Position numbers and translations under genes: made by a program. From contig JACQXB010000023.1 of assembly GCA_016208965.1 (NCBI GenBank), positions 25,904 through 89,903 of the forward strand: 64,000 nt of DNA. The letters run 5' to 3'. Shown piece after piece: positions 27,013 to 54,891 of this stretch. Source of the DNA: Nitrospirota bacterium. GTDB taxonomy: Bacteria > Nitrospirota > Thermodesulfovibrionia > UBA6902 > DSMQ01. The notes below the pieces were generated by a model, which was not told the DNA's origin, searched no databases, and worked only from the letters and a program-made list of their open reading frames with translations. Numbering within the stretch: position 1 is the first letter of the stretch; each line of letters starts with the position of its first letter.

Positions 27013-29415
<2,403 letters not shown>

Positions 29416-29446
29416 TTATCTCCTCTCTCTAAAGGCAGTGAATAAT

Positions 29447-29509
29447 AGCTATTAGCTATTAGCTATTAGCTTTTAGTTTTTAGCTTATCGCTTATTAGCT
29501 TACAGCTTT
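29447..29509. repeat. Heptamer tandem repeat (TAGCTWT-like)
   Basis: tagctat tagctat tagctat tagcttt tagtttt tagctta ... Confidence 0.85.
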
Positions 29510-29510
29510 T

Positions 29511-30617
29511 TCATATCCTCATTGGCATAATAACGCATGTATAATCTTTCCCTTCTACTTCACGTAAAATGGCAGGACTAAGTGGATCTTGAAGATCCAT
29601 CCTAATAGAGTCACCATCTACAGACCTCAATATATCCATTAAGTAACGGGCATTAAAACCAGTTGATATAGACTCCCCTTTATACTGTATATCCATTTCC
29701 TCCCTTGCCTCTCCAATGTCAGGATTTATAGAAATCAGAATTAACCTGTTAGTTTCTATGTCAAGCCTCACTGCGTTAGTCCCTTCCCTGCTCATTATGG
29801 AAGTCCTTTTTAACGCCCTCAAAAAACCGTGCCTATCTATAGTTGCCTTCTTTTCGTTGCCTTGAGGGATAACCTGCTCATAATTTGGATAAGTCCCCTC
29901 TATAAGTCGTGAGGTGAGGGCAACATCCTCAATGGTAAAATAGACATGATTCTTATCAAGCCCTACCTCAATACTTGTAACTTTTTCTTCAAGGAGTTTA
30001 ATTAGTTCTACAGCAGATTTCTTGGGTAATATGAGCTTTTTCTCCTCTGAGAGATTCCCTTCTATCTCTTTGGTAATAAGTGAGAGTCTGTGTCCATCTG
30101 TACCAACAAACCTTAACTCAACAACCTTTTTCTTTGGAATAAAGTGCAGAAGAATCCCGTTTAAGGTATATCTGGGGTCATTATCACCAGTAGCATAAAT
30201 AGTTTTCTCAATCATGGTCTTTAATACATCTGAATTCATATTCAATACATCTATGCGACTTATTTCTGGTAAGGCAGGGTATTCTTCTTCTGGCAGCCCC
30301 ATTAATTTAAATGTGCTTTTCCCTGAGGAAACCTTTATCCAGTTGTTCTCCTGTGACTCTAACAGTATATCATCCTCTACCTCCTTGGCTATCTCAAATA
30401 GCTTTCTTGCAGGTATGCAGAGACTACCTTTCTCAATAACATCTGCCTTGAATGTCCCCTTAATTACAATATCAAGATCAGTAGCCACAATTGATGCGGT
30501 CTTATCGGCCTTCAATAAAAAGTGGCAAAGTATTGGCATGGTGGTCTTCTTTTCAACAACACCTTGAATCCTCTGCAGCGCACTTTGTATTTCTTCCCTT
30601 TCTATCTTTAGCTTCAT
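29511..30617 (-). CDS. dnaN: DNA polymerase III beta clamp
   Basis: ATDLD, TDGHRL, SRLIEGTYPNY, IMPMRI. Confidence 0.97.
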   Translation of the reverse strand: MKLKIEREEIQSALQRIQGVVEKKTTMPILCHFLLKADKTASIVATDLDIVIKGTFKADVIEKGSLCIPARKLFEIAKEVEDDILLESQENNWIKVSSGKSTFKLMGLPEEEYPALPEISRIDVLNMNSDVLKTMIEKTIYATGDNDPRYTLNGILLHFIPKKKVVELRFVGTDGHRLSLITKEIEGNLSEEKKLILPKKSAVELIKLLEEKVTSIEVGLDKNHVYFTIEDVALTSRLIEGTYPNYEQVIPQGNEKKATIDRHGFLRALKRTSIMSREGTNAVRLDIETNRLILISINPDIGEAREEMDIQYKGESISTGFNARYLMDILRSVDGDSIRMDLQDPLSPAILREVEGKDYTCVIMPMRI

Positions 30618-30655
30618 AATATCCCCCTTTAATTGTTTCTATTTATTTATAGTTT

Positions 30656-32002
30656 TTAATCCTTAATTTTGTTTATTAAATAATCAAGCTTTCTACTGAA
30701 ATCCCCATCAGTGCTTCTCCGCTTTTCAACCTGCTTGCAGGCATGTATAACAGTTGAATGGTCTTTACCACCGAAGCCTTTGCCTATCTCAGAAAGAGAG
30801 GTATCTGTAAGAGCCTTGCACAGATACATAGCAACCTGCCTTGGAAAGACAATGTCCCTGCTTCTTTTCCTCGCCTTTATATCGTGTGGTTTTAGTCCAT
30901 AGTATTCACATACAGTCTTTTGTACAAACTCCACAGTTAGAGCCTTCTTCTCTTCGTACATCATATCGTTGAGAACCTCTTTAGCCATTTCAGTAGTTAT
31001 AGGACTGCCTGAAATTGAAGAGTAAGCGCCAAGTCTTATCATACATGACTCTAATTCCCTGATATTTGACTTTACCTTGTCTGCTAACAAATATATCACA
31101 TCCTCTGGGAGTTTAATACCTTCCATTTCAGACTTCTTCCCTAATATCGCTACCTTTGTTTCAACATCAGGCGCCTGAATATCTGCAATAAGTCCCATAC
31201 CAAATCTTGACCTCAAACGTTCAGTGATGGGAGATATATCTTTTGGGGGTCTATCACTTGAAAAGACAATCTGTTTATGTGAATCATAAAGGGCATTAAA
31301 TGTATGGAACAGCTCATCCTGTGTGCCGGTTTTCCCGGCGATGAACTGTATGTCATCTATAAGCAGAACATCAAGATCTCTATATTTTCCCTTAAATTCG
31401 TTCATTTTGTCATTCCTCATAGAATAAACAAATTCATTAAGGAATTGCTCGACAGAGGCATATAAAAGCTTGATGCCCGGTACCTTATCTATTACTAAAT
31501 CTATTACTAAATTCCCTATTGCATTCATTAAATGGGTCTTCCCGAGCCCCACCCCACCATAAATAAATAGTGGATTATAAGACTTACCAGGGGAATTAGC
31601 AACCGCCATTGCAGCAGCGCGGGCAAATTGATTGCAATGACCTTCCACAAAACTGTCAAATGTATACTTTGGGTTAAGGAAAATACCCTTGCTTGCAAGC
31701 CTTGCCTTTCGGTTCTCTAACTTTGCCTCAACCTTTCTCAGGGTGGCATCCTGTTGTTTATCTGAAATCTTAAATTTAATTGACACCTGCCTCTTAATGA
31801 TCTTCTCTATCACCTCGTTAATTAACCCTATGTAATGGTCCTCAATCCACTCTTTGAAAAACCTGTTTGGTGTCTCAATCGTGAGTTGTTGGTCTTGAAG
31901 TTGTATTAATTTAAGAGGTTTAAACCAGAGTTCAAATGTCTGGTTATCAATCTTCTCCTGGATAGCATCAATGGCTTTCCCCCAGATATCATCTAAATCC
32001 AT
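30656..32002 (-). CDS. dnaA: Chromosomal replication initiator DnaA
   Basis: NPLFIYGGVGLGKTHL, LLIDDIQF, RLRSRF, GGKDHSTV. Confidence 0.98.
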   Translation of the reverse strand: MDLDDIWGKAIDAIQEKIDNQTFELWFKPLKLIQLQDQQLTIETPNRFFKEWIEDHYIGLINEVIEKIIKRQVSIKFKISDKQQDATLRKVEAKLENRKARLASKGIFLNPKYTFDSFVEGHCNQFARAAAMAVANSPGKSYNPLFIYGGVGLGKTHLMNAIGNLVIDLVIDKVPGIKLLYASVEQFLNEFVYSMRNDKMNEFKGKYRDLDVLLIDDIQFIAGKTGTQDELFHTFNALYDSHKQIVFSSDRPPKDISPITERLRSRFGMGLIADIQAPDVETKVAILGKKSEMEGIKLPEDVIYLLADKVKSNIRELESCMIRLGAYSSISGSPITTEMAKEVLNDMMYEEKKALTVEFVQKTVCEYYGLKPHDIKARKRSRDIVFPRQVAMYLCKALTDTSLSEIGKGFGGKDHSTVIHACKQVEKRRSTDGDFSRKLDYLINKIKD

Positions 32003-32290
32003 ATCTACAATCCCCCTGGAATCAACCCTTACCCAAAAATTACCTTGTGATATACACCTGTTAATTTGGGTTATCTAAGTTATAAACATAATGCTAACAC
32101 ATTGTTGATAACTTTATAGCAGGCGAAATAGTTTTTTTATTTTAAGGATAACTAACACCCTAAGCAGAAGAAATGAATTAACCTTCAACCCCAAACTTCT
32201 TGCTTAGTTAAGATATCATACCTTAGCTTATTCAGTATAAGCAAGATATTTTCCATAAAATTTGCTAATAGAAAACCGCCCTTTTTTGTG
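32003..32290. other. Probable oriC region
   Basis: AT-rich region upstream of dnaA with one-mismatch DnaA boxes (TTATAAACA ~32080, TGTTGATAA 32103); predominant gene strand switches here. Confidence 0.5.
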
Positions 32291-32294
32291 TCTC

Positions 32295-32324
32295 TTGACA
32301 TTTGTTAACCACTATGGTAGTTAA
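32295..32324 (+). promoter_or_regulatory. Promoter and near-palindromic operator of the TrmB gene
   Basis: TTGACA at 32295, followed by TTAACCACTATGGTAGTTAA. Confidence 0.6.
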
Positions 32325-32328
32325 TAAT

Positions 32329-33117
32329 ATGATTAAAGACAATGTTATCTCAAGGTTAATGCAACTTGGGCTTTCAGAATATGAAGCGAGGGCATATATA
32401 TCCCTACTAAAAGAAAGCCCCGCAAGTGCCTATGAAATCGCAAAAAACTCAGGTATCCCTACCTCAAAGATATACGAAGTCATCAAGAAATTGCAGTCAA
32501 GAAAAATGGTGCAGTCTATCCATGGTGATCGGTCAAGGATTTTTATCCCGCAATCCCCTGATGAGTTTGCCAGTACCATCAGACTTGCAATGGAAGATAG
32601 TCTTGGGGCTATAAAAGAGGAGCTTAAGGAATTTAAGACAGATATAGAGACAGACTATACCTGGAGTATAAGGGATTATGATGGTCTTATACTTAAAGCA
32701 AAGAGAATAATTGATACCGCGGAAAGTACCATCCTATTATCCATATGGCCCCAAGAAATGGAGTTGTTATTGAATATGCTTACTACTGCAGAGGCTCGAG
32801 GGGTAAAGGTGATTGTAGTACACTATGGGGCAACTAATATAAAAATAGGACGGATCTTCAAACACCCGGTAGAAGATACAATTTATGCTCAAGGTGATAT
32901 AAGAGGCTTTGCAATTACTGTTGATTCAAAAGAGGCACTTATATGCAACATCAGCAGAAAAAAGATAGAAGCGATATGGAGCATGAATAGCGGGTTTGTT
33001 ATAATGGTAGAGGAGTATATTAGACATGATATTTATTTAGTAAAAGTTATCACACGTTTTGCCCCGTTGCTTAAAGAAAAATTCGGGGATAGATATGAAG
33101 GGCTCCGGGATATTTAG
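32329..33117 (+). CDS. TrmB-family transcriptional regulator
   Basis: LGLSEYEARAYISLL, YEIAKNSGIPTSKIYEV. Confidence 0.9.
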   Translation: MIKDNVISRLMQLGLSEYEARAYISLLKESPASAYEIAKNSGIPTSKIYEVIKKLQSRKMVQSIHGDRSRIFIPQSPDEFASTIRLAMEDSLGAIKEELKEFKTDIETDYTWSIRDYDGLILKAKRIIDTAESTILLSIWPQEMELLLNMLTTAEARGVKVIVVHYGATNIKIGRIFKHPVEDTIYAQGDIRGFAITVDSKEALICNISRKKIEAIWSMNSGFVIMVEEYIRHDIYLVKVITRFAPLLKEKFGDRYEGLRDI

Positions 33118-33191
33118 AACAAAAACTAGTGTAGCGTTTCATAAATAAGCTGTCATTCCTGTTTTCACGGGAATGACAAAAAATAATAACT

Positions 33192-34571
33192 ATGAGCAGT
33201 CAATCATTAAAAAAACATCTTGAAAGATTAGATAAAAAATATCTTTGGCATCCATTTACGCAGATGAAGGAGTGGGAGAAGGAATCTCCTATAATTATTA
33301 TAGAAGGCAGAGGTTCCTTTATTAAGGATATCTCTGGTAGATGGTATCTTGACGGTGTATCATCAATCTGGGTCACAGTCCATGGACACAGAAAAAAGGA
33401 GATTGATGATGCAATAAAGGGGCAGATTGAGAAAGTAAGCCATTCAACATTTCTTGGTCTTACCCATCCTCCTGCCATAGAACTGGCAGAGAAGATTATA
33501 ACAACTATTAACTCGTCACTCGTCACTCGTCACTCGTCACTATCTCGTGTCTTCTATTCTGACAATGGTTCCACTGCTGTTGAGGTTGCCCTTAAGATGG
33601 CTTTTCAATACTGGAAACACATAGGTGTTAAAAGCAAAACACGATTCTTATCCCTTAATAATGCATACCATGGAGACACAATTGGCGCAGTAAGTGCGGG
33701 AGGTATGGATATGTTTCATAAGGTATTCTCTCCACTGCTTTTCAAGACATATAAAGCACCTTCACCTTACTGCTATCGGTGTGAGTTCGGGAAAGAGCAT
33801 CCCTCCTGTAAGCTTTACTGTCTTAAAGTAATGGATGGCATGATGAAAAGATATCACAAAGAGATAGCAGGATTAATCATTGAACCTACTGTACAAGGAG
33901 CAGGAGGTATGATTGTCTCCCCACCAGGATATCTAAGGGGTGTAAGAAAATTATGCAGTAAATATAATGTCCTGATGATTGCGGATGAGGTTGCAACTGG
34001 TTTTGGAAGGACAGGTAAGATGTTCGCGTGTGAACATGAAGATGTAAGCCCTGATATTTTGTGTGTTTCAAAGGGGATTACAGGGGGGTATCTGCCGCTT
34101 GCTGCAACAATTGCCACAGAAGAAATATACAATGCCTTCCTTGGGGAATTTAAAGAATTAAAGACTTTTTTTCACGGGCATACCTATTCAGGAAACCCGC
34201 TTGCCTGTGCCGCTGCCCTGGCAAACATAGAGGTGTTCAAAAAAGACAAAACCCTGAAGATGATGCAGAGGAAAATTGAAATCTTAGAGAAAGGACTTAC
34301 GGAGATAAAAAAGCTTCCCCATGTTGGAAATGTAAGACAGAAAGGTTTTATGATAGGGATAGAGCTTGTAAAAAATAAGAAGACAAAAACACCATATCCC
34401 TTTGAAGAAAAAATAGGGTGGAATGTATGCCATAAGGCAAGAGCTCAAGGGCTCCTCTTAAGACCACTTGGTAATGTTATAGTGTTAATGCCGCCCCTTA
34501 GTATTTCCCATGATGAGTTAGAAATGCTTACCTGTATAACAGCATCAGCTATTAAGGAAGCAACAGGTTGA
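33192..34571 (+). CDS. bioA: Adenosylmethionine-8-amino-7-oxononanoate transaminase
   Basis: LWHPFTQM, DNGSTAVEVALKMA, ADEVATGFGRTG, FFHGHTYSGN. Confidence 0.95.
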   Translation: MSSQSLKKHLERLDKKYLWHPFTQMKEWEKESPIIIIEGRGSFIKDISGRWYLDGVSSIWVTVHGHRKKEIDDAIKGQIEKVSHSTFLGLTHPPAIELAEKIITTINSSLVTRHSSLSRVFYSDNGSTAVEVALKMAFQYWKHIGVKSKTRFLSLNNAYHGDTIGAVSAGGMDMFHKVFSPLLFKTYKAPSPYCYRCEFGKEHPSCKLYCLKVMDGMMKRYHKEIAGLIIEPTVQGAGGMIVSPPGYLRGVRKLCSKYNVLMIADEVATGFGRTGKMFACEHEDVSPDILCVSKGITGGYLPLAATIATEEIYNAFLGEFKELKTFFHGHTYSGNPLACAAALANIEVFKKDKTLKMMQRKIEILEKGLTEIKKLPHVGNVRQKGFMIGIELVKNKKTKTPYPFEEKIGWNVCHKARAQGLLLRPLGNVIVLMPPLSISHDELEMLTCITASAIKEATG

Positions 34572-34612
34572 ACCTCAGGATTTGTTTTAAAAAAATATGG
34601 TATTATCTTACA

Positions 34613-34689
34613 CGGGGCGTAGCGCAGCCTGGTAGCGCACACGGTTCGGGACCGTGGGGCCGAAGGTTCAAATCCTTTCGCCCCGACCA
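34613..34689 (+). tRNA. tRNA-Pro(CGG)
   Basis: CGGGGCG/CGCCCCG acceptor stem, anticodon loop TTCGGGA, encoded CCA. Confidence 0.95.
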
Positions 34690-34797
34690 TACAAATTTCA
34701 TCAAGCGAAATTTGCAGTTAAAAGTGAAAAGTTATAAGTGTAGGAATTTTAGCCTTAACTTTAAACTCTTAACTCATAACTTTTAACTGTTGTTATC

Positions 34798-34871
34798 GCC
34801 CCTGTAGCTCAGAAAGGAAGAGCAGAGGTTTCCTAAACCTTGTGCCGCAGGTTCGACTCCTGCCAGGGGCA
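34798..34871 (+). tRNA. tRNA-Arg(CCT)
   Basis: GCCCCTG/CAGGGGC acceptor stem, anticodon loop TTCCTAA, GTTCGACTC. Confidence 0.93.
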
Positions 34872-34921
34872 TTAAATTTTTAGTTTGATAATTCCAACTT
34901 TAGTTATATAATGATATCCTG

Positions 34922-35893
34922 ATGAAGGCTCTCGTTACAGGGGCATCAGGTTTTATAGGTAGTCACCTCGTAGAAAAACTTCTAAGCAGTGGTTACGAGG
35001 TCTCTTGTCTGGTTAGAAAGACATCTAATTTTAGGTGGCTTGAGAACCCAAACCTAACAATCATCCATGGAGACTGTGCAGATAAGGAATCCTTAAATAA
35101 TATACGGGGTTTTGACTACATCTTCCATTTAGCAGGTTTAACAAAGGCTAATTGCGGAAGCGAGTTCTATACCGTAAATACAAAGGCTACCGAAAACATA
35201 GTAGAAATCGTGCCCAAAAATAATCCGCAGATTAGAAGATTTGTATATCTAAGCAGTCTTTCTGCATTTGGACCAAGCCTTAACAGCAAACTGCCAGATG
35301 AGAACCATAAACCCCATCCTGTATCAGATTATGGTAATAGCAAACTAATGGGAGAAGAAGTTGTGCTTAAATATAGGGATAGAATGCCGATTTCTATATT
35401 AAGACCTTCTGCTGTTTATGGCCCGCGTGATAAGGAAATATTCCTATTCTTTAAACTTATAAAAAGGGGTATCCTTCCTTACTGGGGTAAGGGTCATGTA
35501 TCATTAGTTTATATAGATGACCTAATAAATGCTATAATACTCTCGGCAGAGAAAGAAGAAGCAGTGGGAGAGGTCTTTTTTATTTCAGATGGTATGGTTT
35601 ATTCTAATGAAGAAGTAATAAATGAAATAGCAAATGCCCTTGAGGTTAAATTGATGAGGGTAAGGTTACCTAAGGCTATTTTGCCGGTAATAGGATTTAT
35701 TGGAGAAAACGTAGGGAAGGTAATAAATAAAGCCACAATGATTAACAGGGATAAGATCAAAGAACTAATGTATTCAGAATGGGTGTGTGATATCTCAAAG
35801 GCAAAGGATAAGCTCGGCTTTATGCCAAAGGTTAAATTAAAGGAAGGGATAAAATGGACAGCAGAGTGGTACAAGATTCACAGGTGGATTTAA
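34922..35893 (+). CDS. NAD-dependent epimerase/dehydratase (candidate ceramide reductase CerR)
   Basis: GASGFIG, YGNSK, RPSAVYGP; precedes an Spt-like gene. Confidence 0.85.
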   Translation: MKALVTGASGFIGSHLVEKLLSSGYEVSCLVRKTSNFRWLENPNLTIIHGDCADKESLNNIRGFDYIFHLAGLTKANCGSEFYTVNTKATENIVEIVPKNNPQIRRFVYLSSLSAFGPSLNSKLPDENHKPHPVSDYGNSKLMGEEVVLKYRDRMPISILRPSAVYGPRDKEIFLFFKLIKRGILPYWGKGHVSLVYIDDLINAIILSAEKEEAVGEVFFISDGMVYSNEEVINEIANALEVKLMRVRLPKAILPVIGFIGENVGKVINKATMINRDKIKELMYSEWVCDISKAKDKLGFMPKVKLKEGIKWTAEWYKIHRWI

Positions 35894-37074
35894 AAACAGA
35901 TATTTTTGAAAAATGCCAAAGGTTTACCGCTGCTAAAGAGGCAATGGCTGCAGGGATATATCCTTATTTCCGTGTGTTAGAATCCGCGCAGGAGCCAGAG
36001 GTAATTGTTAATGGTAAAAGGATGATAATGATTGGTTCAAACAATTATCTCGGTCTTACAAACCATCCGAGGGTAAAGGAGTCAGCGATAGAGGCAATTA
36101 GGAGGTATGGAACTGGTTGTGCAGGTTCAAGGTTCTTAAGCGGAACTCTTGACATACATGTTGCCTTGGAGGAAAAACTTGCCCGCTTTATGAGAAAAGA
36201 GACTGCCTTGGTTTTCTCAACAGGATTTCAAACAAACCTCGGTGTGATACCATCTCTTATAGGTAAAGATGATGTCGTCTTAATAGACAAAATGGACCAT
36301 GCGAGTATAATTGATGGCTGCAGGCTTTCGTTTGGCGAGGTAAAAAAGTATAAACACAATGATATTAAAGACCTTGAAAGACTTCTTCAGCAGTATAGTG
36401 ATAAGGCAAAACTAATAGTTGTTGACGGCGTATTTAGCATGGAGGGAGATATCGTTGACCTGCCCAATGTAGTAAGGATTGCTAAAAAATACGATGCACG
36501 GGTGATGGTTGACGATGCCCATGGTATAGGTGTTCTTGGTAAGACAGGGCGCGGTACTGCTGAGCATTTTGATTTAGAGGACGAAGTAGACCTAATCATG
36601 GGAACATATTCTAAATCTCTTGCCTCTATCGGTGGATTTATCTCAGGTTCAGATGATGTAATCCACTATATAAAACACTTTGCAAGGTCTTTTATCTTCA
36701 GTGCAAGCCCCCCTCCTGCATCTATATCAGCAGTAAGTACTGCAATAGATATAATTGAACAAGAACCGGAGAGACTGGATCGCCTGTGGCGCAATACAAG
36801 GAAAATGTTTAATGGATTTAAATCATTGGGATTTGATACAGGACAGAGCGAGACCCCTATAATACCTATTATTGTCGGAGAAGACATGAAGGCATTTACA
36901 ATGGCAAGGATGCTTCACAACAGGGGTATCTTTGCCAATGTGGCAGTAAACCCTGCAGTGCCTAATGGCAAAGCCCTCATACGGACAAGTTATATGGCAA
37001 CACATACGGATGAGCAGCTTGATAAGGTTCTTATGGAATTTAAAGAAGTTGGTAAGATTTTAGGGATAATTTAA
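35854..37074 (+). CDS. Alpha-oxoamine synthase, probably serine palmitoyltransferase (start may be GTG 35884)
   Basis: GSNNYLGL, GTGCAGSRFL.GT, TGFQTNLG, DHASIIDG, GTYSKSL. Confidence 0.85.
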   Translation: MDSRVVQDSQVDLKTDIFEKCQRFTAAKEAMAAGIYPYFRVLESAQEPEVIVNGKRMIMIGSNNYLGLTNHPRVKESAIEAIRRYGTGCAGSRFLSGTLDIHVALEEKLARFMRKETALVFSTGFQTNLGVIPSLIGKDDVVLIDKMDHASIIDGCRLSFGEVKKYKHNDIKDLERLLQQYSDKAKLIVVDGVFSMEGDIVDLPNVVRIAKKYDARVMVDDAHGIGVLGKTGRGTAEHFDLEDEVDLIMGTYSKSLASIGGFISGSDDVIHYIKHFARSFIFSASPPPASISAVSTAIDIIEQEPERLDRLWRNTRKMFNGFKSLGFDTGQSETPIIPIIVGEDMKAFTMARMLHNRGIFANVAVNPAVPNGKALIRTSYMATHTDEQLDKVLMEFKEVGKILGII

Positions 37075-37076
37075 AA

Positions 37077-38279
37077 TTGCTTGAGGTCCTTGCTGTAAAT
37101 AATAGAAGCTCATTTAAAGAATTCCTAAATCTCCCCTTTAAGTTATACGATAAAAATCCTTTCTGGGTGCCTCCACTCTTAAAAGACCTGAAAGAACAAT
37201 TCTCACCCCAAAACCCGTTTTTAAAGCATGCTGAGATAGCCCCTTTTATAGCAAAAATTGATGGTAAAACCGTTGGAAGAATAACCGCTATATATAACTC
37301 TGCCCATATAGATTTTCATAATGAAGCACACATGCCTCGAAGAGACACAAAAGACAATGAAAATAATCCCCCCTCGCCCCCCTTTAGCAAAGGGGGGATG
37401 GGGGGATTTTCAGGTGAGAAAACGGGTTTTTTTGGTTTTTTTGAATGCATAGATTACCCTGTCGTTGCAAAGGCGCTTCTTGAAAGGGTTAAGCAATGGC
37501 TTAGAGAGAAAGGGATAACTATACTCCGCGGACCCGTAAATTTTTCCACCAACGATGAATGCGGCTTACTTATAGACGGATATAACTGCTCACCAATGAT
37601 TATGATGCCTTATAATCCCTCATATTACTCAATGCTCCTTGAACAATGTGGATTCGCAAAGGCAAAGGACCTCTATGCATACATAATAGATGTACCCAAG
37701 ACCATCCTCCCGGAGAAAGTCTTTAGAGTCGTGAGGATTGCGGAGAAACACAACATAACCGTTAGGCACATAAACATCAAATCTTTTAGGCAAGAGATGG
37801 AGATTTTTAAAAGTATCTATAATTCAGCATGGGAGCGAAACTGGGGCTTTGTCCCAATGACCGATGAAGAAATAGACCATGAAGCAAAAAAGCTGAAGCC
37901 AATAATAATCCCGGAACTCACATTGATAGCCGAATGTAGAGGTCAGCCGGTTGGTTTTATGATGATGCTGCCTGATTTCAATTATGTCCTGAAGAAACTC
38001 AATGGCAGACTTTTCCCGTTTGGAATTCTTAAAGCCCTCTGGTATTCAAGAAAGATAAAAGACCTGCGGCTCCTGCTTCTTGGGATAAAAGAGGGTTTCA
38101 GGAAACAGGGTGTTGATGCGTTTCTATTGATGGAGGGATTAAGGGCTTTAAAAAATGGCGGTTATGAAAGGGTTGAGTTTTCATGGGTTTTGGAAGACAA
38201 TGTCCCCGTGCAAAAACTTGCAGGAATGTTCAGTGGAAGATTGTACAAGGTATATCGGATATACGAGACAAAGATTTAA
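37077..38279 (+). CDS. GNAT-fold acyltransferase (bacterial ceramide synthase/YghO-like)
   Basis: LY...PFWVPPL, GFFGFFEC, RGP.NFSTNDECGLL, YNP.YY, NWGFVP, EFSWVLEDN. Confidence 0.8.
   Translation: MLEVLAVNNRSSFKEFLNLPFKLYDKNPFWVPPLLKDLKEQFSPQNPFLKHAEIAPFIAKIDGKTVGRITAIYNSAHIDFHNEAHMPRRDTKDNENNPPSPPFSKGGMGGFSGEKTGFFGFFECIDYPVVAKALLERVKQWLREKGITILRGPVNFSTNDECGLLIDGYNCSPMIMMPYNPSYYSMLLEQCGFAKAKDLYAYIIDVPKTILPEKVFRVVRIAEKHNITVRHINIKSFRQEMEIFKSIYNSAWERNWGFVPMTDEEIDHEAKKLKPIIIPELTLIAECRGQPVGFMMMLPDFNYVLKKLNGRLFPFGILKALWYSRKIKDLRLLLLGIKEGFRKQGVDAFLLMEGLRALKNGGYERVEFSWVLEDNVPVQKLAGMFSGRLYKVYRIYETKI
37365..37408. repeat. 44-bp G/C palindromic element, copy 2 (in frame)
   Basis: Encodes NPPSPPFSKGGMGG. 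Confidence 0.95.
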
Positions 38280-38302
38280 GAAGCTTTCAAGAAACATGCA
38301 TA

Positions 38303-39199
38303 TCACTTAACTAATCGCTTTATATACCTCTCAAAAAGCCTTAGGCCCTCCATGTGTTTCTCTGTAAAATCGTACGAAATCCCTTTCCAATACCGAACAA
38401 GTTCTTTTTCGCTAAGCCATTTTATCTGTGGTGCGTGGTGGGCTATAAGAGGAAATTCTTTGTATGCATATTTTTTTGCGAGGATTAAGTCAGATGAGAG
38501 CTTCTCAATAAGTTCTTTTTTTTCGGAAAGCGCCTTTTTTCTTACCATCCAGAGTGCAAAGACAAATGGTAAGCCTGTATGCCTAAACCATAATTCCCCA
38601 AGGTCGTAGACAAACAAGGGTAAAGGGCAAGGGGTAAGGGGCAAGGTTAAAAATCCCCCCTCGCCCCCCTTTACTAAAGGGGGGATGGGGGGATTAAACC
38701 CGCAACTCATAACTGTCTTTCTTGCCTTCATTGCATTATCCCCTATTAGCAGGCATGCGGAGCAAAAGGATAGGAGTTTGCTGATGTTGTTGCTTTTTAC
38801 TACTACAAAGCGGCATTTTAGTGAATAAAATTCTCTCAGGATAATTTTCAGAAGGGCAACAGAGGTTTCAGAATCAGAAGACACTGCGATTGTTTTTCCA
38901 CTAAGTTCATCTAAATGAAGCTTTGAAAATAAAAATATGCTGCATATGGGTCCCGAAGAACTTATGGAGAGATTAGGAATAATGTTATATTTTTCTTTGT
39001 ATCTTAGGTATTCTATGGATGATGATGGGCTTACATCTATCCCTCCATTCCTTAACATCTTGTTGAGTTCCGATGGCACGCCGCGAGTAAACTTATATCC
39101 AGAATGGCCGCATTTGTTATTTAGGTAATAATAAATGGGAACTAAGTTTGCGTATGGGATTTTACCTATTTTTAGAGTAGATTTATTTTTTTTTAACAC
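38303..39199 (-). CDS. mqnA: Chorismate dehydratase (futalosine pathway)
   Basis: IGKIPYAN, PSELNKML, SETS, LLIGDNA, DLGELW...TGLPFVFALW. Confidence 0.9.
   Translation of the reverse strand: MLKKNKSTLKIGKIPYANLVPIYYYLNNKCGHSGYKFTRGVPSELNKMLRNGGIDVSPSSSIEYLRYKEKYNIIPNLSISSSGPICSIFLFSKLHLDELSGKTIAVSSDSETSVALLKIILREFYSLKCRFVVVKSNNISKLLSFCSACLLIGDNAMKARKTVMSCGFNPPIPPLVKGGEGGFLTLPLTPCPLPLFVYDLGELWFRHTGLPFVFALWMVRKKALSEKKELIEKLSSDLILAKKYAYKEFPLIAHHAPQIKWLSEKELVRYWKGISYDFTEKHMEGLRLFERYIKRLVK
38652..38695. repeat. 44-bp G/C palindromic element, copy 3 (in frame)
   Basis: Encodes NPPIPPLVKGGEGGF on the minus strand. Confidence 0.95.
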
Positions 39200-39307
39200 C
39201 TGATAATTTTATCATAGAGACAAAATTATAACCAATCTATTAAACTACTTATAAATAATTTTAAAAATTATTAATTATTTTTAAACTTCTATAAGGAGAA
39301 ATGACAC

Positions 39308-40645
39308 ATGAACAAAAGAGGTTTTATCTTATTAGCTTGTGCCATAAGTGTTTTATCAATCCTTTTAACATTCAACGGTCTCCTTGCTTCTCAGGAATAT
39401 TCTTTATCAGACCTATACAAGCTCGCCCTTGAACGAAGTGAGACCATACAAATAGCGAGAGAGGAACTCTATATCTCAGAACAGGGGAAGGACAAGGCTT
39501 TCTCCGCATTTCTTCCAACATTTTCTGCCTTTGGAAGTCATATAAGATACAGCGGAGAAAAACGCTCATCCATCTCTGTCTTACAACCTGATTACAGCAA
39601 CTCCTGGGGGGTCAGATTAGACCGGTCCCTATCTTTAGGGGGACAAGAAGTCATATCCTATGGGATTTCAAAAGATAGCATCCAAAAAAGCATATACGAC
39701 CTTAACAAAGTTAAGGAAGACTATCTATTAAGTGTGGCTGCTGCATATTATGATGTGTTGAAATCAAAAAAATCACTGGATATAGCAAAAGCAAATGTTG
39801 AGAGGCTTACAAAACACAGGGATGCAGCAAAGACAAGGCTTAAGATAGGAGAGGTTACAAAGACAGTACTTTTAAGGGCAGAGGCAGAACTTTCAGGCGC
39901 CCAGTCAGATTTGATAAAGGCTGAAAATAACCTGAAACTTGCAAAGATAATACTTGCAAGGATTGTAGGCATAACAGAAAATTATGATGTGAAAGAGAGT
40001 CAGGAGTCAACAGATTTAAAAAATATAGTACCTGCTGACTGCCAACTGTCAACCATCGACTGCCTTAAAGAAAAAGCAGTGTCTGAGAGGACAGAGTTAA
40101 AAGCCATTGCCATTGAAAAGAAAATAGCGGAAGACAAGATTAAATATGCAAAAGGCTCATACTGGCCTACACTTTCAGTTGAGGGTGTATATTCCAGAAA
40201 AGAGGACTACCCATCTTCAGTCTCTGCCGTTGGGGAGACCATATACGGTGGACTTAAACTTGATTTCCCATTTTTTGAGGGAGGGCTGCGGATGGCGGAG
40301 GTGCGGGAGGCAAGGGCGAAACAAAGACAGACAGAATACCGTTTCTCAGATTTAAAAAATTCTATAAATATAGATGTTGAAGATGCGTATTTATCTGTAA
40401 TTACACAATCTGGAATTTTAACAAAACTTGAGACACAGGTAAACTATGCAATGGATAATTATAATGCTGTGTCCAAGCAGTTTGAATATGGACTCGCAAA
40501 CAGTATAGATGTTATGGATGCAAATACACTGCTCGTTACTGCAGAGAGAGAACTTGCCAATGCAAGATATGATTATCAGTTAGCAATCTTAAAATTAAAA
40601 CGAGCAACCGGGACGCTTCTGAAGACAGCAGTCAGTATGCAGTAG
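39308..40645 (+). CDS. TolC-family outer membrane efflux protein
   Basis: Signal peptide and two OEP repeats. Confidence 0.9.
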   Translation: MNKRGFILLACAISVLSILLTFNGLLASQEYSLSDLYKLALERSETIQIAREELYISEQGKDKAFSAFLPTFSAFGSHIRYSGEKRSSISVLQPDYSNSWGVRLDRSLSLGGQEVISYGISKDSIQKSIYDLNKVKEDYLLSVAAAYYDVLKSKKSLDIAKANVERLTKHRDAAKTRLKIGEVTKTVLLRAEAELSGAQSDLIKAENNLKLAKIILARIVGITENYDVKESQESTDLKNIVPADCQLSTIDCLKEKAVSERTELKAIAIEKKIAEDKIKYAKGSYWPTLSVEGVYSRKEDYPSSVSAVGETIYGGLKLDFPFFEGGLRMAEVREARAKQRQTEYRFSDLKNSINIDVEDAYLSVITQSGILTKLETQVNYAMDNYNAVSKQFEYGLANSIDVMDANTLLVTAERELANARYDYQLAILKLKRATGTLLKTAVSMQ

Positions 40646-53279: not shown

Positions 53280-54033
<754 letters not shown>

Positions 54034-54053
<20 letters not shown>

Positions 54054-54891
54054 GGGGCTTGAGGCACTAATTCCTGAGAAAAGAGAAACACTTTTAACTG
54101 AAAAACCCCAAGGAGCATCGGAACTTAACATAAATACAATTACTCCGAACGAATATCAGCCAAGAAGAGTCTTTAGAGACACGACTCTACAAGAACTTGC
54201 TCAATCAATAAAAGAAAAAGGTATTATTCAGCCTGTGATTGTAAAAAAATGGGAAGATGGCTCATTCAGGCTCATAGCAGGTGAAAGGCGGTGGCGTGCT
54301 GCAAAGATAGCAGGACTTACAAAGATTCCTGCTATTATAAAAGATGTTTCACCTCAGGAGACCATAGAGCTTGCCCTTATAGAGAATATTCAGAGAGAGG
54401 ACTTAAACCCTATTGAGACCGCTGAGGCATTCCAAAGGCTTATCAATGACTTCAACCTAACCCATGAGACGCTCTCACAAAAAGTTGGGAAGGACAGGGC
54501 AACTGTGACCAACTATCTCAGGATTTTAAAACTCCCATCAGAGATTAAGGCATGGGTAGCAGAAGGCTCTTTAAGTATTGGGCATGCAAAGGCACTCTTG
54601 CAGATAGAGAGCACAGGAGCCCAAATTAATATTGCAAGAAGGATAATACAAAAGGGCTTAAGTGTAAGGGAGGCAGAGGTATTAAGTAAAAAGGCAGGTT
54701 CACCAAAAAGCTCTCTTGAAAAACAGTCTCAACGGAAGGATGCCCAGATAGCCTCTCTTGAAGAGAAACTCATGCACAGCCTTGGCACAAAGGTTCGGCT
54801 TATTCACAAAGGTAAAAAAGGCGGGAAGATAGAGATAGAATATTACTCACTTGATGAATTAGACAGGCTTTTAGAAATATTAGTACATTAA
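54034..54891 (+). CDS. parB: Chromosome partitioning protein ParB
   Basis: LGKGL, QPR, AGERRWRA, ENIQREDL. Confidence 0.96.

What the first reader, a model, noticed from the sequence alone, without database searches (positions are those of the whole stretch)
34922..38279. Probable complete bacterial ceramide operon (cerR-spt-bcerS)
Three tightly coupled genes encode an extended SDR, an alpha-oxoamine synthase with Spt-like motifs (GSRFL.GT, TGFQTNLG, DHASIIDG, GTYSKSL) and a ~370-aa GNAT of the YghO/bCerS type. These are the three activities (Spt, bCerS, CerR) established for ceramide synthesis in Caulobacter. Automatic annotation would probably call the middle gene bioF because bioA is nearby. 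If the host is a Nitrospirota anaerobe, sphingolipid production would be notable.
Basis: partly seen in the sequence, partly recalled or inferred. Interest (0 to 1): 0.72.

Follow-up and report, generated by a model that had tools for sequence, protein, structure and literature searches.

The report
Ceramide-synthesis operon in groundwater Nitrospirota
Three tightly packed genes in this uncultured sulfur-cycling bacterium match the three enzymes that other bacteria use to make ceramide, so it likely makes this membrane lipid; this is an ordinary new example of a pathway already predicted for its lineage, and its one oddity is a recent 93-base hairpin repeat inserted in frame in the third gene.

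Summary
The middle gene's best solved relative is Sphingobacterium serine palmitoyltransferase (452 bits; next family 349). It keeps 28 of 33 mapped positions, and a tree test rejects grouping with BioF (p 3e-7). The real bioF lies on another contig, next to a bioD-like gene. The E. coli BL21 homologues of bCerS (YghO) and CerR each pick the flanking genes as their best match in this genome. The trio is intact in 17 of 18 relatives that carry bcerS, and bcerS occurs in 184 of 401 phylum genomes. A 2023 paper already names Thermodesulfovibrio as having this genetic potential, and this scan noted the same operon in at least 8 other genomes. No enzyme or lipid was measured. One extra: bcerS carries a 93-bp in-frame palindromic repeat (31 residues, a predicted floppy loop). 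Contigs about 95% identical from two other studies lack it exactly, so it is recent. The hairpin core matches 129 places in the genome, like Rickettsia palindromic elements.

The parts
34885..34912 (+). Sigma-70-type promoter-like site (11 of 12 matches, 16-nt spacer) ending 9 nt before the cerR ATG; would give a very short or absent leader
   Evidence: consensus match only; 6 sites in the region against 9.8 in shuffles. A 9/12 or better site at the same place in 7 of 27 relatives against 2.4% of shuffles; SD-like word in 2 of 27
34922..35893 (+). cerR: extended SDR, predicted ceramide (3-keto) reductase; TGASGFIG at residue 6, Ser112 region, YxxSK at 137-141
   Evidence: best G000 hit of E. 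coli ECD_02852, 27%, E 2e-36 against 1e-18 for the next paralogue; groups with spt-adjacent SDRs
35854..37074 (+). spt: PLP-dependent alpha-oxoamine synthase of the serine palmitoyltransferase clade (start ATG 35854 or GTG 35884); Schiff-base Lys254 and His149 by mapping
37077..38279 (+). bcerS: tandem-GNAT acyltransferase of the YghO type, predicted ceramide synthase; TTG start 2 nt after the spt stop
   Evidence: 32% to E. coli YghO, E 1e-71, its only hit in G000; 36% to the Sphingomonas cluster gene; 29% to a Bacteroides GNAT; tandem GNAT fold
37322..37414 (+). 93-bp in-frame insertion in bcerS (about residues 83-113): a dispersed GC-rich palindromic repeat bounded by a 3-nt direct repeat
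   Evidence: gap against 12 of 12 aligned homologues; exact empty site in contigs of runs X5 and X8; hairpin z = -4.0; low-confidence coil in the model

Best explanation
These three genes form a conserved cerR-spt-bcerS cluster that likely makes dihydroceramide, a sphingolipid backbone for the cell envelope. Inferred steps: (1) Spt, using PLP on Lys254, condenses L-serine with a long-chain acyl thioester and releases CO2, giving 3-ketosphinganine. No acpR or aasR is in the cluster and only one ACP was found in the genome, so the donor is likely acyl-CoA or the housekeeping acyl-ACP, as expected for a Bacteroidota-like Spt. (2) bCerS N-acylates the amine with a second fatty acyl chain. (3) CerR reduces the C3 ketone with NAD(P)H. 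The order acylation-then-reduction is borrowed from Caulobacter and is disputed in print. The genes are likely one translationally coupled transcript. The 31-residue repeat in bCerS is predicted to be a tolerated surface loop. Shown here: gene anatomy, homology, tree placement, synteny, a separate bioF, and the empty site of the insertion. Not shown: any activity, substrate, lipid or expression.
For: Spt: top solved relative is S. multivorum SPT, 452 bits, against 349 (AONS/KBL), 283 (Kbl), 260 (cysteate acyltransferase) and 214 or less (BioF). Best NCBIfam model SerpalmtaseCFB 574 bits against bioF 408 and Kbl 419. 28 of 33 mapped S. multivorum positions are identical, including N52, G80, S81, F114, N117, H138, D210, H213, T241, K244 and A274 (alignment, indexed; most residues from PMC10196870). 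BioF and Kbl form a clade without the query (100, 99), and the AU test rejects query-with-BioF at p 3e-7. True bioF at G000:C20:7978-9135 scores 463, over the 426 cut-off; bioW and bioB are on C5. bCerS and CerR: best hits of the E. coli BL21 cluster genes, which PMC9386255 lists as homologues of Caulobacter CC_1154 and CC_1164. The SDR falls in a 37-row clade (support 95, FastTree) with all spt-adjacent SDRs and without 9 other extended SDRs. Synteny: 17 of 18, 16 of 20 more distant genomes, and both partners within 4 kb in 34 of 80 named loci from many phyla.
Against: The Spt is below the curated cut-off of every NCBIfam Spt model (574 < 640, 414 < 500, 337 < 670). No NCBIfam model names the GNAT (E. 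coli YghO has none either at E 1e-15). The SDR is only 27% identical to the E. coli reference and scores similarly on HpnA/OleD models, far below their cut-offs. The SDR tree is a fast tree with long branches, and most in-group rows were picked by similarity to the query. The Spt trees are quick trees with few references, and only one (E. coli) is experimentally tested. Caulobacter sequences were not compared directly. Five mapped positions differ from S. multivorum SPT (S53, N85, F242, L249, M271). Two literature searches found no report of ceramide measured in a Nitrospirota culture (listings; one paper read in passages).
Confidence: 0.86

Rival explanations
1. Same three-step chemistry, different amino acid: the synthase uses alanine, glycine or cysteate, giving 1-deoxyceramides or sulfonolipid-type (capnine) lipids.
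For: S. multivorum SPT also turns over alanine and glycine at lower efficiency (abstract of PMC10196870). 1-deoxy and sulfono-1-deoxy ceramides dominate the upper euxinic Black Sea and were linked there to sulfate reducers and/or Bacteroidota (PMC11334938). The host has dsrA. The protein is under the Spt cut-offs.
Against: The cysteate acyltransferase scores 260 against 452 bits for SPT. Where that enzyme has Ala82, Tyr115 and Lys280 and lacks Asn117 (PMC13692747), this protein has the SPT-type Ser92, Phe125, Ala284 and Asn128 (the position equivalences are my inference from the numbering).
Confidence: 0.08
2. The cluster is a ceramide operon, but in this strain bCerS is impaired by the recent 31-residue insertion, so the pathway stalls or runs weakly.
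For: The insertion is absent from 12 of 12 aligned homologues and from contigs about 95% identical, so selection has had little time to test it. The pathway is patchy in the order: spt in 22 of 64 genomes, 9 of 50 in family f3.
Against: The frame is intact. The rest of the model stays at high pLDDT and the insert is a coil between a helix and a strand. The Sphingomonas homologue has about 9 extra residues at the same spot. A low-depth contig of another study (X6) also carries the filled site. 74 of 129 pattern matches lie inside long ORFs of this genome.
Confidence: 0.04
3. The middle gene is bioF (or kbl) working with the nearby bioA, and the flanking genes are unrelated.
For: bioA lies at 33192-34571 on the same strand. 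The protein scores 408 on the bioF model, near its 426 cut-off.
Against: The genome has its own bioF over the cut-off. The AU test gives p 3e-7. Two tRNA genes and a promoter-like site separate bioA from the trio. No bioA hit in any of the 18 related 4-8 kb loci, while the SDR and GNAT stay attached.
Confidence: 0.02

Closest known systems
Caulobacter crescentus ceramide pathway: Spt (CC_1162), bCerS/aca (CC_1154), CerR/epi (CC_1164) (PMC11087976; PMC9386255; Stankeviciute et al. 2022, not held, known here only through citing papers)
   Same: Same three enzyme types (alpha-oxoamine synthase, YghO-type GNAT, extended SDR), clustered.
   Different: Compact three-gene cerR-spt-bcerS order. No acpR or aasR in the cluster. 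Spt is closer to the Bacteroidota type than to the alphaproteobacterial type. Anaerobe-type host with dsrA. Caulobacter proteins were not aligned directly.
E. coli BL21(DE3) cluster yghO-aasR-epi-acpR-spt (ECD_02850-02854; NC_012971)
   Same: YghO 32%, Epi 27% and Spt 40% identical; each picks the window gene as its best hit in G000.
   Different: E. coli has the dedicated AcpR and AasR and adjacent lptFG paralogues. G000 gave no AcpR hit, a single ACP in the fabG-acp-fabF locus, and one lptFG pair elsewhere.
Sphingobacterium multivorum SPT (PDB 3A2B, 8GUH, 8H1Q) and NCBIfam NF047600 SerpalmtaseCFB
   Same: Best solved relative (452 bits); 28 of 33 mapped positions identical.
   Different: Below the NF047600 cut-off (574 < 640). 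In the Bacteroidales records seen, spt is not clustered with the other two genes.
Rickettsia palindromic elements (RPE), as reviewed in PMC10969869
   Same: A short palindromic repeat dispersed through the genome and often fused in frame inside genes.
   Different: Here a core of about 45 bp, or a 93-bp composite, with C-run/G-run arms that reads as PPxPPxxKGGxGG; RPEs are about 150 bp. Sequence relation to RPEs was not tested, and no transposase was looked for.

Membership tests
Bacterial serine palmitoyltransferase (Spt) | Groups with known Spt and apart from BioF/Kbl in a tree | tested here: met
   AU p 3e-7 against grouping with BioF; quick trees, one experimentally tested reference
Bacterial serine palmitoyltransferase (Spt) | PLP and serine-site residues of S. 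multivorum SPT | tested here: met
   28 of 33 mapped positions identical; motif is GTYSKS rather than GTFSKS
NCBIfam Spt equivalogs (NF047600, NF047599, NF047603) | Score above the curated cut-off | tested here: not met
   574/640, 414/500 and 337/670; a relative's Spt also falls short at 585/640; the models are named for particular clades
Bacterial serine palmitoyltransferase (Spt) | Forms 3-ketosphinganine from serine and an acyl thioester | not testable with these tools
   needs an enzyme assay
BioF (TIGR00858) | Score above the cut-off, BioF clade, biotin-gene role | tested here: not met
   408 < 426; another gene meets it (463); tree
Cysteate C-fatty acyltransferase (CFAT/SulA) | Remodelled pocket (Ala82, Tyr115, Lys280; no Asn117) | tested here: not met
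   Ser92, Phe125, Ala284, Asn128; 260 against 452 bits
bCerS (YghO/aca type) | Full-length homology to known bCerS homologues, within the published screen of E <= 1e-30 and >= 50% coverage | tested here: met
   E 1e-71 over the full length to E. coli YghO; threshold from PMC11334938, where other queries and database size were used
bCerS (YghO/aca type) | Tandem GNAT fold | tested here: met
   model pLDDT 90.4; top PDB matches are tandem GNATs, E 7e-14; no solved bCerS among sequence hits
bCerS (YghO/aca type) | N-acylates the long-chain base | not testable with these tools
   needs an assay or complementation
CerR (epi type) | Extended SDR homologous to known CerR homologues and linked to spt | tested here: met
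   E 2e-36 to ECD_02852, best hit in G000; clade support 95 in a fast tree; adjacent to spt in 17 of 18 relatives
CerR (epi type) | Periplasmic, membrane-associated location as in Caulobacter | tested here: inconclusive
   The protein begins with the Rossmann strand and an in-frame stop lies at 34901-34903, so there is no classical signal peptide; the E. coli and Sphingomonas homologues begin the same way
AcpR/AasR-dependent five-gene type (Caulobacter, E. coli BL21) | acpR next to spt and a dedicated acyl-ACP synthetase | tested here: not met
   none in the cluster; no AcpR hit and best AasR hit 25%; one ACP in an 88% complete genome
Sphingolipid-producing organism | Ceramides detected in cells | not testable with these tools
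   uncultured; needs lipidomics

The most novel reading that the evidence does not exclude
Ceramide is a core, ancestral envelope lipid of most Thermodesulfovibrionia-class sulfur-cycling anaerobes, made by a minimal AcpR-free three-gene pathway alongside LPS, and these organisms are a main source of the ceramides measured in anoxic groundwater and serpentinite fluids. In this population the ceramide synthase also stays active while carrying a newly inserted, still polymorphic 31-residue palindromic loop.
Probability: 0.4. Interest if true: 0.4.

Novelty: new member of a known kind. Interest (0 to 1): 0.18.

Why it matters
If true, it adds one more uncultured anaerobe to the long list of bacteria with the ceramide pathway, and supports the published tentative link between Thermodesulfovibrionia and ceramide lipids in subsurface fluids (PMC10667739). 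The useful open point is that my searches found no lipid measurement in a culture of this phylum; a cultured Thermodesulfovibrio would test it cheaply. The insertion gives a natural pair of filled and empty alleles for asking whether translated palindromic repeats are neutral.

Tried and rejected
Stankeviciute et al. 2022 (PMC8891067) is not held, and a bioRxiv search did not list it; its species table may already list this lineage in detail. The supplement of PMC11334938 could not be read; it may name Nitrospirota among the 38 phyla, although the main text has no 'Nitrospir'. PMC10411912 was irrelevant (its hits were Nitrospirillum). A search on Nitrospirota + sphingolipid + Spt returned only eukaryotic SPT papers among the 15 listed of 1,880. 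A fetch meant for E. coli bioF landed in the DE3 prophage and was not used; BioF references were an Alicyclobacillus gene and the genomes' own copies. The careful Spt tree did not finish, so quick trees are reported. No RNA holder was listed, so nothing can be said on expression. Rfam gave only the two tRNAs in 32000-40000. The one PAP2_3 match in G000 lies in a 701-aa ORF on another contig, not in a ~300-aa stand-alone gene like those beside the operon in family f25; no head-group enzyme was identified. A YegS/BmrU-type lipid kinase sits beside bioW-bioB and has no shown link to ceramide. In one search, 5 of the 24 'matches' were only the repeat peptide and were dropped, leaving 18 of 40 relatives with a full-length bcerS. 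No complex was predicted, as no binding is claimed.
Full report
Observation. Three + strand ORFs occupy 34922-38279: an extended SDR (323 aa), an alpha-oxoamine synthase (406 aa from ATG 35854, or 396 aa from GTG 35884) and a GNAT (400 aa). The SDR and synthase overlap, and the GNAT starts 2 nt after the synthase stop. Upstream lie bioA, tRNA-Pro and tRNA-Arg, then a promoter-like site 9 nt before the first ATG. Downstream an mqnA-family gene converges. The quoted motifs are all present. The window is G000:C17:25904-89903 of a 1.67-Mb, 88% complete genome. The nearest named GNAT homologues (about 57-67%) are labelled Nitrospirota or Thermodesulfovibrionia. The genome has dsrA over the cut-off and lpxC. 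The four runs that hold the whole stretch are groundwater metagenomes of one study that may be its source. 'Anaerobe' is an inference; the direction of the Dsr was not tested.

The middle gene is Spt-like, not BioF. Among solved structures the best match is S. multivorum SPT (452 bits), followed by an AONS/KBL (349), other bacterial SPTs (286-295), Kbl (283), cysteate acyltransferase (260) and BioF (214 or less). NCBIfam ranks the Bacteroidota Spt model first (574 bits) but under its cut-off of 640; bioF (408) and Kbl (419) are also under theirs. I mapped 33 S. multivorum positions through the alignment. Most are named in passages of PMC10196870, N117 comes from PMC13692747, and R367 is recalled. 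28 are identical; S53, N85, F242, L249 and M271 differ. The genome's only other close paralogue lies at C20:7978-9135 beside a fabG-like and a bioD-like gene and passes the bioF cut-off (463); bioW and bioB are on C5. With bioA in the window, biotin synthesis does not need this gene. In a 41-row and an 18-row quick tree, BioF and Kbl form a clade without the query (support 100 and 99). Forcing the query and three relatives together with BioF is rejected, p-AU 3e-7. Only one reference, E. coli BL21 Spt, is experimentally tested (PMC9386255, passages).

The flanking genes. I fetched the E. coli BL21(DE3) cluster, whose yghO and ECD_02852 are listed as homologues of Caulobacter CC_1154 and CC_1164 (PMC9386255 section 13). 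Against all ORFs of G000, YghO hits only the window GNAT (32%, E 1e-71). ECD_02852 hits the window SDR best (27%, E 2e-36; next 1e-18). The GNAT is also 36% identical to the acyltransferase of a Sphingomonas epi-acp-spt region and 29% to a Bacteroides GNAT. Its model (pLDDT 90.4) matches tandem GNATs. In a 46-row fast tree the SDR sits in a 37-row clade (support 95) with every spt-adjacent SDR, the E. coli and Sphingomonas ones included, and without 9 other extended SDRs; most in-group rows were picked by similarity to the query, which favours this result. No acpR or aasR is in the cluster. AcpR gave no hit, the best AasR hit is 25%, and one ACP was found, in a fabG-acp-fabF locus.

Distribution. 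A full-length bcerS is in 18 of 40 close relatives (after dropping 5 repeat-only matches). 17 of these 18 show SDR-spt-GNAT in the same order; the last is cut by a contig end. In the order, spt is in 22 of 64 genomes: 13 of 14 outside family f3, and 9 of 50 in f3. In 401 phylum genomes bcerS was found in 184, nearly everywhere in the same class (f7 34/35, f11 14/14, f15 14/14) and not found with this query in some large families (f29 0/75, f30 0/28). Of 20 more distant loci, 16 keep the trio. The other 4, all genus g35, have bcerS apart; cerR-spt is an adjacent pair in 5 of 5 g35 genomes tested. Among 80 named GTDB loci reached with an Spt alignment (a capped scan), 34 have both partners within 4 kb, 19 the GNAT only, 14 the SDR only and 13 neither; many are cut by contig ends. 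They span Acidobacteriota, Zixiibacteriota, Bacteroidota, Planctomycetota and others.

Mechanism. By the known chemistry (PMC11087976, parts 1-2 of 4 read), Spt would condense serine with an acyl thioester, bCerS would add the N-acyl chain and CerR would reduce the ketone. The order of the last two steps is disputed in that paper. All steps are inferred here. The SDR has no room for a classical signal peptide, but neither do its E. coli and Sphingomonas homologues, so this does not decide its location. No head-group enzyme was identified in G000.

The insertion in bcerS. The GNAT is 31 residues longer than 12 of 12 aligned homologues at one spot. The extra 93 bp hold a GC-rich hairpin (-38 kcal/mol, z -4.0). 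Contigs from runs X5 and X8, of two other studies and about 95% identical, join 37321 to 37415, skipping exactly 93 nt with 3 nt of ambiguity. A low-depth contig of X6 carries the filled site, and contigs of X1 enter the element from both sides. So the insertion is real, recent and frame-preserving. The hairpin core matches 129 places in G000 against 0-4 in five shuffles; 74 of the 129 lie inside ORFs of 150 aa or more (a few are loose matches, and most were not checked against homologues). The insert is coil with pLDDT 45-65 in an otherwise confident model, at a spot where the Sphingomonas homologue also has extra residues. This resembles Rickettsia palindromic elements (PMC10969869, passage; lead from earlier scan notes).

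What is known. PMC10667739 (passages) states that the genetic potential for sphingolipids occurs in genera including Thermodesulfovibrio, citing Stankeviciute et al. 2022, and tentatively attributes ceramides in serpentinite fluids partly to Thermodesulfovibrionia. PMC11334938 (passages) extends potential producers to 40 phyla, anaerobes among them. The original paper and the Black Sea supplement could not be read. Searches for Thermodesulfovibrio with ceramide or sphingolipid (3 and 7 papers listed) showed no culture lipidomics. Earlier notes of this scan report the same operon in at least 8 other genomes and similar in-frame repeats in 3; these are unchecked notes and not independent support.

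Verdict. Real, correctly read, and ordinary: a new member of a known kind. Confidence in a functional serine-based ceramide pathway is 0.86; interest 0.18.

Noticed in passing
window 4553, 5609, 10522, 21301, 37378, 38665, 43375; genome-wide: The same C-run/G-run palindrome matches 7 places in the window and 129 in the genome. It reads in frame inside mqnA (38665) and an AcrB-type gene (43375), and in the 5' extension of a transketolase-like ORF (4553). One ORF (G000:C10:52053-56297) holds three copies.
   Followed up: partly
G000:C37:85624-85710; G000:C47:53968-54040; G000:C27:51939-51972; G000:C12:21463-21515: Two long copies of the composite element sit inside other ORFs. Its left part also occurs alone or in front of other sequence, so the element looks modular.
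   Followed up: partly
L078:6366-7265 and L080:6611-8062 (family f25): In a distant family a PAP2_3 (AUR1-like) gene lies convergently just after bcerS, in one case with a small membrane protein without Pfam match between them: a candidate ceramide head-group transferase. A Bacteroides CerR-like SDR is also followed by a PAP2 gene.
   Followed up: partly
L032 (G014:C268): spt lacks about 40 N-terminal-region residues including the GSNNYLG motif, and a DUF433/DUF5615 pair lies between spt and bcerS: possible decay or an assembly error.
   Followed up: no
L091 (G154:C73): Two bcerS copies in tandem, separated by one oppositely oriented gene.
   Followed up: no
L093 (Priestia megaterium plasmid NZ_CP137804): A stand-alone Spt-like synthase, 53-54% identical to the window protein, on a mobilizable Bacillota plasmid, divergent from methyltransferase and acyltransferase genes and without bcerS or cerR annotated nearby.
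   Followed up: no
L095 (Rubrobacter radiotolerans plasmid 1) and L096 (Aureispira anguillae plasmid): Complete spt/bcerS/cerR-like trios on plasmid records, one in a Gram-positive actinobacterium next to an LTA-synthase-family gene.
   Followed up: partly
window 34885-34922 and related loci: cerR often starts 9-12 nt after a promoter-like -10 box with no Shine-Dalgarno word (7 of 27 relatives pass a 9/12 score; SD-like word in 2 of 27), hinting at leaderless or short-leader translation.
   Followed up: partly
window 27013-32002 and 53280-54891: dnaA-dnaN-gyrB-gyrA and parA-parB lie in the window, and cumulative GC skew turns at about 32000: the operon sits a few kb from the probable replication origin (gene names read from the sequences).
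   Followed up: no
order-level census, family f3: spt is found in only 9 of 50 genomes of family f3 but in 13 of 14 of the order's other genomes, suggesting repeated loss in that family.
   Followed up: no
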